From NCBI RefSeq assembly GCF_001677475.2, contig NZ_CP015229.1: 64,000 nt of DNA. The stretch is one strand, 5' to 3'. Source of the stretch: Escherichia coli. GTDB taxonomy: Bacteria > Pseudomonadota > Gammaproteobacteria > Enterobacterales > Enterobacteriaceae. How positions within the stretch are numbered: position 1 is the stretch's first letter; each line of letters begins with the position of its first letter. Below are positions 14,306 to 15,408 of this stretch, piece by piece. The translations under genes and the position numbers were made by a program. The notes under the pieces are model-generated. The model worked only from the letters and a program-made list of their open reading frames with translations, searched no databases and was not told the origin of the DNA.

Positions 14306-14545
14306 TAATTTTTAGCCTCGCCTAGTGCGGGGCTTTTTCGTATATAGAGCTATTCAACGATGAATTTCTCGAAAGAATCAATAACTTAGATAGATCCGCT
14401 GAACTTTAAGCACATCCGCTCAGAGTTGAGCACATCTCCTCAAAATTGAGGGCATCCCTCCAGTTTTGGATGCATGTATAGATCAGTCCAGAGTTGGTCC
14501 TATGTGCATAAAAAAAGGCCAACCCCGAAGGATTGGCCTAGAGAA

Positions 14546-14773
14546 TCAAATTCCTGTTGCTTCTACCATTTCACCGTCAACCTGAACAAAGAATTTCAAA
14601 TCAACTTTATGGAGTGATTTGTAGAATTGAGCAATTGAAATACCGTGTTCGCTCAATACTTGTTCTTTTTCGGCTTTACCTTTCGGTGCTTGATAGTACG
14701 CTTTTACAATCGCTGCCAGTTGTTCACGATCAAAACGGCAAGGGCGACCGCGAGTAGCTTTAGTAGTCATAGT
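14546..14773 (-). CDS. Small putative HTH DNA-binding protein (about 75 aa from MTMTTKATRGRP; ORF track extends to 14803)
   Basis: GISIAQFYKSLHK helix-turn-helix-like segment; RBS GGAGA before the internal ATG; A-tract plus hairpin terminator at 14509-14538. Confidence 0.45.
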   Translation of the reverse strand, partial: TMTTKATRGRPCRFDREQLAAIVKAYYQAPKGKAEKEQVLSEHGISIAQFYKSLHKVDLKFFVQVDGEMVEATGI

Positions 14774-14805
14774 CATTTTCTCCAAATTAAAGTGAATGTT
14801 CACCT

Positions 14806-15408
14806 TTATTTAGAGGACTTACATTTTATCGGAAAAAGTTCTCCATCGTCAACCGACATAAAGAACTCTGCCTTAATCCCGTACTTCTTCAACCGTGAAT
14901 AATATGTACCCCGACTAATATCAACCTTTCGAAGCACTTCGAAGAACCCTTTAGGATCGTTGTAATAGTGGCTATATCGCACGTTAGCGAGTTCTACAAA
15001 CAATTCCTTTGTATCACCATAGCCTTTCTTGAATGCCTCGTTACGATAGCGTGTAATAGCGTGATTTAGTCTCTTCTGTTTCAACACTTCTCGGATCGGC
15101 TTCCACTGCAACCTATAGATCTGGCCTCCATCCACTCGATAGAACCGTTTAATGTCAAAATCAAACCATTCTCGGACTCTCTGAAACTCTGTATGTGATG
15201 TGCGATGCTTTCTAAAGAAGTTGCGAAGATCTCTATAGCCATTATCGCGATACAATTCTATTAAAATCTCTTTCGCTTCCTCACGACTAAAGCCAGAAGT
15301 GGTTATATCTGTTTTTAAATGCTTGTGCTTAACTGGTAAACGATATTCATGATCGGTGCAAGACAAGGCTAATTCTAATTCATCTCTTTGTTGCTGATTA
15401 ATTAGCAT
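14806..15408 (-). CDS. Hypothetical basic protein (200 aa), possible DNA-binding regulator
   Basis: ORF divergent from the large terminase gene; K/R-rich with TYYSRLKKYGIK HTH-like segment. Confidence 0.45.
   Translation of the reverse strand: MLINQQQRDELELALSCTDHEYRLPVKHKHLKTDITTSGFSREEAKEILIELYRDNGYRDLRNFFRKHRTSHTEFQRVREWFDFDIKRFYRVDGGQIYRLQWKPIREVLKQKRLNHAITRYRNEAFKKGYGDTKELFVELANVRYSHYYNDPKGFFEVLRKVDISRGTYYSRLKKYGIKAEFFMSVDDGELFPIKCKSSK

What the first reader, a model, noticed from the sequence alone, without database searches (positions are those of the whole stretch)
14509..15408. Two-gene minus-strand cassette wedged between the Rha gene and the large terminase
A 200-aa basic protein and a ~75-aa HTH-like protein are co-oriented opposite to the whole morphogenesis operon and end at a clean terminator. 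They share an 88-bp divergent promoter region with the TerL gene. Possible roles: late-gene regulator, a recombination directionality factor for the serine integrase, or a toxin-antitoxin/defence pair. There is no recognisable catalytic motif.
Basis: inference. Interest (0 to 1): 0.45.

Follow-up and report, generated by a model that had tools for sequence, protein, structure and literature searches.

The report
Orphan phage DNA-binding gene pair
Two small genes beside a prophage's DNA-packaging gene encode an unclassified, lineage-restricted kind of helix-turn-helix DNA-binding protein; they are most likely regulators of phage gene expression, not packaging, toxin or defence proteins.

Summary
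A 200-aa basic protein (orfA, 14806-15408) and a 74-76-aa protein (orfB, 14546-14776) form a minus-strand unit. It has its own promoter-like box and a strong intrinsic terminator, and sits 88 bp from the gpA-type large terminase gene.

Both proteins are built from one novel ~65-aa module: a resolvase/transposase-type three-helix HTH followed by a beta-hairpin. OrfA has two copies and orfB has one, preceded by a Hin-like RGRP arm. A third gene, orf60 (11164-11346), has another copy. The family has no Pfam, PHROG, PADLOC or cultured-phage match. It is nearly confined to one Enterobacterales prophage lineage, found in 53 of 5426 complete E. coli genomes.

The pair is not the small terminase. A Nu1-like gene sits at 8528-9079, and one relative carries the pair 3 kb away from TerL. 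It is not the iteron binder either, because the iterons covary with a different protein. No toxin or defence domain was found.

These three paralogs are the only conserved DNA-binding proteins in a temperate phage that lacks CI/Cro/Q-type genes. I therefore read the pair as developmental transcription regulators (confidence about 0.5). A role as recombination directionality factor remains possible (about 0.12).

Verdict: a new protein family of an ordinary functional kind, of modest interest.

The parts
14516..14539 (-). Intrinsic terminator ending the orfA-orfB transcript
   Evidence: 10-pair stem with 6 GC pairs, 4-nt loop, followed by TTTTTTT. It begins 7 nt after the orfB stop codon.
14546..14776 (-). 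orfB: 74-76 aa, basic N-terminal arm (KATRGRPCRF), then one HTH + beta-hairpin module
   Evidence: homologues 55-99% identical; 'EHGISIAQFYK' almost invariant. AF2 model mean pLDDT 83, with H16-28, H33-43, H47-56, E62-65, E68-71. hhalign of the four-class domain profile A3 (of which orfB is one class) against a bona fide HTH_7 unit gives 95.8%, E 7e-9, and the alignment includes the GRP arm; orfB's own profile A2 reaches 40.8%, E 2.8e-4.
14806..15408 (-). orfA: 200 aa, pI 9.6; N-terminal helix, then two tandem HTH + beta-hairpin modules (about residues 38-100 and 128-195)
   Evidence: AF2 mean pLDDT 73.9, 80-90 within the two modules, each H-H-H-E-E. hhalign D1 vs D2 86.5% E 4.5e-6; D1 vs orfB 96% E 3.5e-9; D2 vs orfB 85% E 6.5e-6; control N-terminus vs D2 0.4%.
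15434..15441 (-). ATAAATAC box, 26 nt upstream of the orfA ATG (promoter-like -10 element)
   Evidence: conserved in all relatives 17-27 nt before the orfA start. It belongs to a motif class found only in intergenic DNA of the element.
15461..15468 (+). ATAAATAC box, 28 nt upstream of the TerL ATG; inverted copy of the orfA box
   Evidence: It is retained as CTAAATAC before TerL in L047, where the pair is not adjacent. The spacer between the two boxes varies from 0 to 40 bp among relatives.
15409..15496 (.). 88-bp back-to-back promoter region shared with TerL
   Evidence: It is nearly invariant among about 35 E. coli-type relatives, whatever their TerL allele (99% or 58%) or orfB allele.
11164..11346 (-). 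orf60: third paralog (MARPVKFTRE arm + one HTH module), first gene of the orf60-p328 unit
   Evidence: hhalign orfB family vs orf60 93.3% E 2.8e-7; D1 vs orf60 92%. Alignment A3. In relative L047 it lies directly downstream of orfA-orfB on the same strand.

Best explanation
**What it is.** The pair is a self-contained operon. A promoter-like box at 15434-15441 drives orfA then orfB, and the transcript ends at the terminator 14539-14516. It encodes two paralogous sequence-specific DNA-binding proteins of a new family.

**The shared module.** The family's module is a divergent resolvase/transposase-type (homeodomain-like) three-helix HTH extended by a two-stranded beta-hairpin.

- OrfA carries two modules in tandem. 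I infer that it reads a bipartite site of about 20 bp as a monomer, in the manner of Tc3 transposase, paired-domain or CENP-B DNA-binding domains.
- OrfB carries one module behind a Hin-like RGRP arm. I infer major-groove recognition plus a minor-groove contact in AT-rich DNA.

**Proposed role.** Together with the third paralog orf60, they are the transcription regulators that run the developmental programme of this temperate phage lineage. Which role each plays (repressor or activator; early/late or lysis/lysogeny control) is open.

**Proposed site of action.** The most likely site is the back-to-back orfA/TerL promoter region. The two -10-like boxes there are only 0-40 bp apart, so RNA polymerase cannot occupy both at once. 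Expression of the pair and of the packaging/head operon would then be alternative states.

**Shown versus inferred.** Shown: the gene structure, the domain composition and paralogy, HTH-class similarity, lineage restriction, exclusion of the TerS and iteron-binder roles, and absence of any canonical regulator. Inferred: DNA binding itself, the target sites, and the direction of regulation.
For: 2. **Similarity to the resolvase/transposase HTH class.** A profile of all four module classes, searched against 1.84 billion representatives, retrieved only its own lineage, a few small phage proteins, and arrays of HTH_7/HTH_23/HTH_Tnp_1 repeats. Against one HTH_7 unit it scores 95.8%, E 7e-9, with the GRP arm aligned.
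3. **Three paralogous genes in one phage,** all in the non-structural arm. In relative L047 they form a single cluster, orfA-orfB-orf60-p377, leaving the central AT-rich regulatory region.
4. **Elimination.** No ORF of the element or of the intact DEC5A relative matches CI/Cro/XRE, Q, Mor/C, Ogr or any other regulator family. Rha is absent from some relatives. A temperate phage needs regulators, and these are the only conserved DNA-binding candidates.
5. **The other DNA-binding jobs are taken.** TerS is the Nu1-like gene 8528-9079. The iterons covary with p328.
6. **Own promoter box and terminator.** The box is an inverted copy of the TerL box and is conserved down to 41% protein identity.
7. 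**Divergence pattern.** OrfA diverges fast and mosaically (37-90%), while the orfB recognition helix is invariant. This pattern is usual for phage specificity regulators.
Against: - There is no experimental or expression evidence of any kind.
- No operator was identified. No k-mer outside orfB covaries with the orfB allele. The sequence between the two boxes is dispensable in some relatives.
- The orfA-proximal promoter half is unchanged in L007 although orfA there is only 49% identical. That argues against simple autoregulation with co-evolving operators.
- The elimination argument fails if regulation is carried out by proteins with no detectable DNA-binding fold.
- The ATAAATA box heads every transcription unit, so it gives no specific link between the pair and TerL.
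Confidence: 0.5

Rival explanations
1. Recombination directionality factor (excision control) for the element's large serine integrase. One or both proteins bind the integrase and/or attL/attR and switch it to excision.
For: - The element uses a large serine integrase, and no RDF is recognisable anywhere in it.
- From general knowledge, RDFs of serine integrases are small, unrelated to each other and often far from int.
- The pair is conserved in relatives whose integrases are 72% identical and target different genes: codB here, hicB in DEC5A.
Against: - The pair lies 12.6 kb from int here and about 18 kb away in the intact DEC5A prophage.
- There is no match to Pfam or PHROG excisionase families.
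- Single-domain members of the same family sit in lytic T4-like phage contigs that do not integrate.
- From general knowledge, most characterised serine-integrase RDFs act by protein contact rather than through an HTH.
Confidence: 0.12
2. Packaging specificity proteins: a small terminase or an accessory cos/pac-binding factor working with the adjacent gpA-type TerL.
For: - The pair is immediately adjacent to TerL in almost all relatives.
- The proteins are small, basic and HTH-containing, as small terminases are.
- No co-oriented gene lies upstream of TerL.
Against: - A Nu1-like gene exists at 8528-9079. hhalign against lambda Nu1 gives 95.9%, E 6.4e-9 over 106 columns. Pfam Phage_Nu1 hits 6 of 7 homologues. 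The top two PDB sequence hits are lambda Nu1 (1j9i, 6hn7), with a third chain named 'Terminase small subunit' (7lw0) further down the list. A conserved GC-rich block lies upstream of it.
- OrfA and orfB show no similarity to Nu1, FoX1 gp01 or ep3 TerS (probabilities <= 1%).
- There is no oligomerisation or TerL-binding region in the models.
- The pair is on the opposite strand.
- In L047 it is separated from TerL by three genes and about 3 kb.
- OrfA and TerL identities are uncorrelated.
Confidence: 0.07
3. Origin- or iteron-binding replication proteins acting on the AT-rich repeat region or on the 20-bp repeat array next to the pair.
For: - An iteron-like array (AAACCTACACT, at least 7 copies) lies in the 1.3-kb non-coding region.
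- In L047, orfA lies directly beside an array of AATGCTACTTT / GGATGCC repeats.
- A 20-bp repeat array sits just 3' of orfB.
- The phage has no recognisable replication genes.
Against: - Iteron copy number tracks the p328 allele almost perfectly: 4-9 copies where p328 is 98-100% identical, 0-2 where it is another type. It is independent of the orfA, orfB and orf60 alleles.
- The 20-bp array varies from 0 to more than 5 units among close relatives that have the same pair.
Confidence: 0.05
4. A moron-like accessory unit expressed from the prophage: a toxin-antitoxin pair, a defence system, or a superinfection-immunity factor against other phages.
For: - It is an independent promoter-to-terminator unit, inverted relative to the flanking lytic operons.
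- Its GC content is slightly lower (39.5% against 42-43%).
- Its position differs in L047.
Against: - Both proteins are built from the same DNA-binding module, and no toxin or effector domain is present.
- There is no PADLOC, Pfam or NCBIfam hit.
- The pair is conserved in every member of the lineage, like a core gene. Paralog orf60 is part of the core early operon.
Confidence: 0.08

Closest known systems
C-terminal DNA-binding domain of small serine recombinases (Hin/Gin/resolvase; Pfam HTH_7) and N-terminal HTH of IS3/IS630-type transposases (HTH_Tnp_1, HTH_23, HTH_28)
   Same: - A three-helix homeodomain-like HTH.
- OrfB and orf60 have the (G)RP basic arm directly before helix 1, as Hin does.
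- The profile matches an HTH_7 unit at 95.8%, E 7e-9.
- The family profile retrieves HTH_7/HTH_23/HTH_Tnp_1 repeat arrays.
- There is a faint direct HTH_Tnp_1 hit for orfB (E 0.17).
   Different: - These are stand-alone proteins with no catalytic recombinase or transposase domain.
- Each module carries an extra two-stranded beta-hairpin after helix 3.
- No Pfam model reaches its threshold.
- OrfA lacks the GRP arm and has two modules.
Bipartite two-HTH DNA-binding domains (Tc3 transposase 1u78, CENP-B 1hlv, paired domain)
   Same: - Two homeodomain-like HTH modules in tandem on one chain, joined by a linker of about 25 residues.
   Different: - There is no sequence relation.
- Monomeric bipartite binding by OrfA is inferred, not shown.
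Paralogous phage regulator sets such as Mu Mor/C (Pfam Mor, PF08765)
   Same: Small paralogous HTH proteins encoded by one phage and used in succession to switch on later operons. This is an analogy from general knowledge.
   Different: - There is no direct Mor hit for orfA or orfB.
- The domain order differs, and no dimerisation domain is seen.
Lambda Nu1-type small terminase (Pfam Phage_Nu1)
   Same: A small basic HTH protein encoded next to a gpA-type TerL.
   Different: - No sequence or profile similarity.
- Opposite strand.
- The element has its own Nu1-like gene at 8528-9079.

Membership tests
Resolvase/transposase-type homeodomain-like HTH (Pfam HTH_7 / HTH_23 / HTH_Tnp_1) | Three-helix helix-turn-helix fold | tested here: met
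   [not shown]
Resolvase/transposase-type homeodomain-like HTH (Pfam HTH_7 / HTH_23 / HTH_Tnp_1) | Score above the curated Pfam threshold for one of these models | tested here: not met
   OrfA has no family. OrfB hits HTH_Tnp_1 at E 0.17, 12.5 bits against a cut-off of 24.1.
Resolvase/transposase-type homeodomain-like HTH (Pfam HTH_7 / HTH_23 / HTH_Tnp_1) | Profile-level similarity to a bona fide member, including the basic GRP arm before helix 1 | tested here: met
   Domain profile A3 against one unit of P0078 (Pfam HTH_7, E 7.6e-37) gives hhalign 95.8%, E 7e-9 over 47 columns, with the GRP arm aligned. The arm is present in orfB and orf60 but absent from both orfA modules.
Lambda Nu1-type small terminase (Phage_Nu1) | N-terminal winged HTH with the W-x-E/Q-x-G-M-P signature and a central self-association region | tested here: not met
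   hhalign of the orfA, orfB and domain profiles against lambda Nu1, FoX1 gp01 and ep3 TerS gives probabilities <= 1%. The 183-aa protein at 8528-9079 does meet this feature (95.9%, E 6.4e-9).
Lambda Nu1-type small terminase (Phage_Nu1) | Gene co-oriented with, and upstream of, the large terminase gene | tested here: not met
   The pair is on the opposite strand. In relative L047 it is not adjacent to TerL.
Type II toxin-antitoxin pair / known defence systems | One partner carries a toxin or effector domain; the pair matches known TA or defence models | tested here: not met
   Both partners consist of the same HTH module. There is no Pfam, NCBIfam or PADLOC hit apart from noise.
Serine-integrase recombination directionality factors | Stimulates attL x attR recombination and inhibits attP x attB recombination by the cognate integrase | not testable with these tools
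   This needs in vitro or in vivo recombination assays.
Serine-integrase recombination directionality factors | Sequence or fold relation to a described RDF or excisionase family | tested here: not met
   [not shown]
Known phage regulators (CI/Cro XRE-type, Q antiterminator, Mor/C, Ogr/Delta) | Match to the corresponding Pfam, PHROG or NCBIfam model | tested here: not met
   There are no such hits for orfA or orfB, nor for any other ORF of the element.

The most novel reading that the evidence does not exclude
The three paralogs (orf60, orfB, orfA) may be the whole regulatory tool-kit of a temperate phage lineage that has no CI, Cro, Q, Mor/C or sigma-like gene. Every transcription unit in this lineage is headed by a (T)ATAAATA box with a poor -35 element. 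On this reading, the family works on these '-10-only' promoters. The back-to-back orfA/TerL promoter pair, with boxes 0-40 bp apart, would be a new kind of lysis/lysogeny or early/late switch run by a monomeric two-HTH protein and a Hin-like one-HTH protein.
Probability: 0.25. Interest if true: 0.55.

Novelty: new variant of a known kind. Interest (0 to 1): 0.3.

Why it matters
This prophage lineage is present in about 1% of complete E. coli genomes, and also in Salmonella and Proteus. It has no cultured representative in the phage collection searched, and none of its early genes is annotated.

Three results give the first functional map of its control region:
- the pair, with orf60, forms one new HTH family;
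- the small terminase is a different gene, 6.4 kb from TerL;
- the iterons belong to p328.

This tells experimenters which three small proteins to test for immunity, induction and late-gene control. If they prove to be the switch, they would add a regulator architecture not seen in model temperate phages: resolvase-type HTH plus hairpin, one protein with two modules. They would also supply compact orthogonal DNA-binding parts. If not, the finding remains an ordinary pair of orphan phage DNA-binding proteins.

Tried and rejected
**Sequence searches**
- Pfam, PHROGs, NCBIfam and PADLOC scans of orfA and orfB gave nothing above noise. Both proteins weakly hit NCBIfam PA0613_fam (E 0.07-0.09). PA0613 has no known function in the literature searched, so this lead was dropped.
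- megablast and tblastn against 50,697 phage records found no match for the pair.
- PDB sequence searches with the orfA, orfB and domain profiles returned only noise, such as designed repeat proteins.

**Structure searches**
- Foldseek against the PDB had no hit with E <= 0.001.

**Small-terminase idea**
- This was rejected after finding the Nu1-like gene, the null comparison with Nu1-type proteins, and the L047 gene order.
- The upstream ORFs of the closest TerL relative, phage DCP80, are unrelated to the pair.

**cosB-like reading of the 20-bp tandem repeats at 14394-14473**
- Rejected, because the array has 0 to more than 5 units among close relatives.

**Iteron-binder idea**
- Rejected by covariation of the iterons with p328.

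**Search for operators**
- A k-mer association test with the orfB allele found none.

**IMG/VR contig ends as a guide to cos**
- Uninformative: the contigs are prophage predictions that end at att sites.

**T4-late-promoter reading of the TATAAATA boxes**
- The orf60-like gene in a T4-like contig has an early-type TTGACA promoter, so there is no support from that side.

**Other**
- A literature search for this prophage lineage found nothing relevant.
- Rfam found no RNA family in the element.

Full report
**Context**

The window is Escherichia-type chromosome. prpBCDE lies at 1534-7049. The cytosine permease gene codB is split into an N-terminal part (7473-7844) and a C-terminal part (30913-31818) by a low-GC insert of about 23 kb (42% against 53-55%).

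The insert carries these genes:
- a large serine recombinase (28012-29709, -);
- a gpA-type TerL (15497-17404);
- a 164-aa head-tail joining protein;
- a lambda-type portal;
- a protease-capsid fusion;
- a tail-fibre gene.

It is a defective copy. Intact relatives are about 35 kb, for example a prophage in hicB of E. coli O55:H7 DEC5A. Here an IS3-family element (26670-27482) replaces about 12 kb of tail and lysis genes. IMG/VR holds the identical 22.3-kb element (L010).

OrfA (14806-15408, 200 aa, pI 9.6) and orfB (14546-14776 or -14770, 74-76 aa) lie on the minus strand, about 30 nt apart. They end at a strong intrinsic terminator (14539-14516). They are flanked by a Phage_pRha gene and by TerL, with 88 bp between the orfA and TerL start codons.

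Both are real genes. There are 45 and 21 cluster representatives respectively, at 41-99% identity and of constant length, in E. coli, Salmonella and Proteus, all annotated 'hypothetical'. The pair lies next to a gpA terminase in 53 of 5426 complete E. coli genomes. It also appears in 34 IMG/VR prophage contigs.

**What the proteins are**

No curated library recognises them. No cultured phage in the INPHARED collection encodes them.

Internal comparison showed that orfA is a tandem duplication and that orfB is a single copy of the same module:
- D1 vs D2: 86.5%, E 4.5e-6;
- D1 vs orfB: 96%, E 3.5e-9;
- D2 vs orfB: 85%, E 6.5e-6;
- control: 0.4%.

A 60-aa ORF 3.2 kb away (orf60, 11164-11346) is a further copy (93%, E 2.8e-7, alignment).

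The AlphaFold models show each module as three helices plus a beta-hairpin. OrfA has mean pLDDT 73.9, with 80-90 inside the modules. OrfB has mean pLDDT 83.

A profile of all four module classes, searched against 1.84 billion representative proteins, found only 36 proteins. They fall into three groups: its own lineage, a few small proteins from T4-like phage contigs, and long arrays of HTH_7/HTH_23/HTH_Tnp_1 repeats. Against a single HTH_7 unit the profile scores 95.8%, E 7e-9 over the whole HTH. The (G)RP arm of orfB and orf60 aligns to the resolvase GRP.

So the family is a new, very narrow offshoot of the resolvase/transposase-type HTH, with an added hairpin. OrfA is a two-module protein with no other domain except a short N-terminal helix, which the 177-aa Salmonella forms lack.

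**Not the small terminase**

Relatives of this TerL at 28-30% identity have a co-oriented Nu1-like gene upstream. OrfA and orfB show no similarity to those proteins or to lambda Nu1.

Instead, a 183-aa gene at 8528-9079 (+), conserved in all relatives, is Nu1-like:
- hhalign against lambda Nu1: 95.9%, E 6.4e-9 over 106 columns;
- hhalign against FoX1 gp01: 69%, over 143 columns;
- Pfam Phage_Nu1: 6 of 7 homologues (best E 1.2e-5);
- top two PDB sequence hits: lambda Nu1 (1j9i, 6hn7), with a third chain named 'Terminase small subunit' (7lw0) further down the list.

A GC-rich block about 100-240 bp upstream of it is conserved among diverged relatives and is a plausible cos site (inference).

One relative, L047, breaks the adjacency to TerL. 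There the order is orfA (frameshifted), orfB, orf60, p377 on one strand, and Rha and two other genes sit directly upstream of TerL.

**Not the iteron binder**

The 1.3-kb AT-rich non-coding stretch (11347-12629) is conserved in size and position in all relatives. It holds an AAACCTACACT array.

Across 40 loci, the number of these iterons follows the allele of the 328-aa protein (10060-11046). There are 4-9 copies where that protein is 98-100% identical, and 0-2 otherwise. The count is independent of the orfA, orfB and orf60 alleles.

**Not a TA or defence pair**

Both partners are the same DNA-binding module, and nothing matches PADLOC or toxin families.

**Promoter region**

The only blocks conserved in the orfA-TerL spacer down to 41% protein identity are two inverted 8-mers, GTATTTAT and ATAAATAC. 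Each lies 17-29 nt before its start codon. They are separated by 0-40 bp. The TerL box persists in L047 without the pair.

The heptamer ATAAATA occurs 11 times in the element. All 11 are in intergenic DNA (observed 11 against 2.3 expected there; observed 0 against 4.3 expected in coding DNA). Nine point at a gene start 27-121 nt away. These are the starts of TerS, p156, Rha, TerL, orfA, orf60 (twice), the 101-aa gene and the 137-aa gene. Most have poor -35 hexamers.

The box is therefore the lineage's general promoter signature. The pair has one, back-to-back with TerL's, at a spacing that should make occupancy by RNA polymerase mutually exclusive (inference).

**Why regulators**

No ORF of the element or of the intact DEC5A prophage matches CI/Cro, Q, Mor/C, Ogr or any other regulator. 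Rha is missing from some relatives. Apart from the integrase and the Nu1-like protein, the only conserved DNA-binding proteins are the three paralogs.

OrfA evolves fast and mosaically (37-90%). The orfB recognition helix is invariant.

I therefore commit to developmental transcription regulators acting at phage promoters, with the orfA/TerL region as the likeliest target (confidence 0.5).

The weaknesses are these:
- no operator was found;
- the fold matches are weak;
- there are no expression data.

RDF (0.12), packaging accessory (0.07), moron/TA/defence (0.08) and replication (0.05) remain as rivals.

**Novelty and score**

The family is new and narrowly distributed, but its kind (small phage HTH proteins) is commonplace. 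I rate it a new variant of a known kind, interest 0.3.

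Noticed in passing
window 8528-9079 (+), with upstream block about 8290-8440: A 183-aa Nu1-like small terminase gene lies 6.4 kb from the gpA-type TerL, with the whole early region between them (hhalign vs lambda Nu1 95.9%). A GC-rich block upstream is conserved among diverged relatives and may be cos. A split TerS/TerL arrangement is unusual for lambda-type terminases.
   Followed up: partly
window 11347-12629: A 1.3-kb AT-rich (36% GC) stretch has no credible ORF and is conserved in length and position in all relatives. It holds an AAACCTACACT iteron array (11820-11997) whose copy number covaries with the allele of the 328-aa protein (10060-11046). It is likely an origin or control region, with p328 as its binding protein. 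No Rfam hit.
   Followed up: partly
window 10060-11346 (-); L052 5454-6323, L048 10001-11250: The two-gene module 'orf60-like small HTH + p328-like protein' also occurs in T4-like phage contigs. The L052 204-aa protein matches the p328 N-terminal domain at hhalign 97.9%, E 3.9e-13. This suggests a module exchanged between temperate and T4-like phages. Its function is unknown.
   Followed up: partly
window 14394-14493: An array of units of about 20 bp, each a small palindrome (for example GCTCA-N4-TGAGC, CCTCA-N4-TGAGG), lies between the two convergent terminators. Stems differ between units but stay complementary. Copy number ranges from 0 to more than 5 among close relatives (one copy in DEC5A). 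Unexplained; possibly a small mobile hairpin repeat.
   Followed up: partly
window 7845-30912 (11 sites, e.g. 8490, 12583, 13386, 15435, 15461, 30206): The heptamer ATAAATA (mostly TATAAATA) occurs only in intergenic DNA (11 observed against 2.3 expected; 0 against 4.3 in coding DNA). It heads nearly every transcription unit, usually without a good -35 element. It has the same sequence as the T4 late-promoter consensus (my own knowledge), but no link to T4 late transcription was found.
   Followed up: partly
window 15462-15495 (+): The TerL leader can fold into a 9-12-bp hairpin whose 3' arm contains the Shine-Dalgarno GAGGG. The hairpin is kept in all diverged relatives, with one compensatory and several wobble-compatible changes. 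This may indicate translational control of TerL.
   Followed up: partly
window 26300-27950, compared with L001/L005: The element is a defective prophage. An IS3-family insertion coincides with loss of about 12 kb (tail tube, tape measure, tail tip and lysis genes) present in the 35-kb DEC5A relative. The element is inserted in codB. Relatives sit in hicB or beside a PHP-domain gene.
   Followed up: yes
window 11382-11402 (-): A terminator-like hairpin (GAGCGGTTAACGCTC followed by T6) lies between the TATAAATA boxes and the ribosome-binding site of orf60. It may be an attenuator of the orf60-p328 operon.
   Followed up: no
L047 14543-16174 and 9614-10354: The distant relative L047 carries a reverse-transcriptase-TIR gene at its left end (a defence-like moron). 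Its orfA homologue is split by a frameshift into ORFs of 121 and 117 aa.
   Followed up: no
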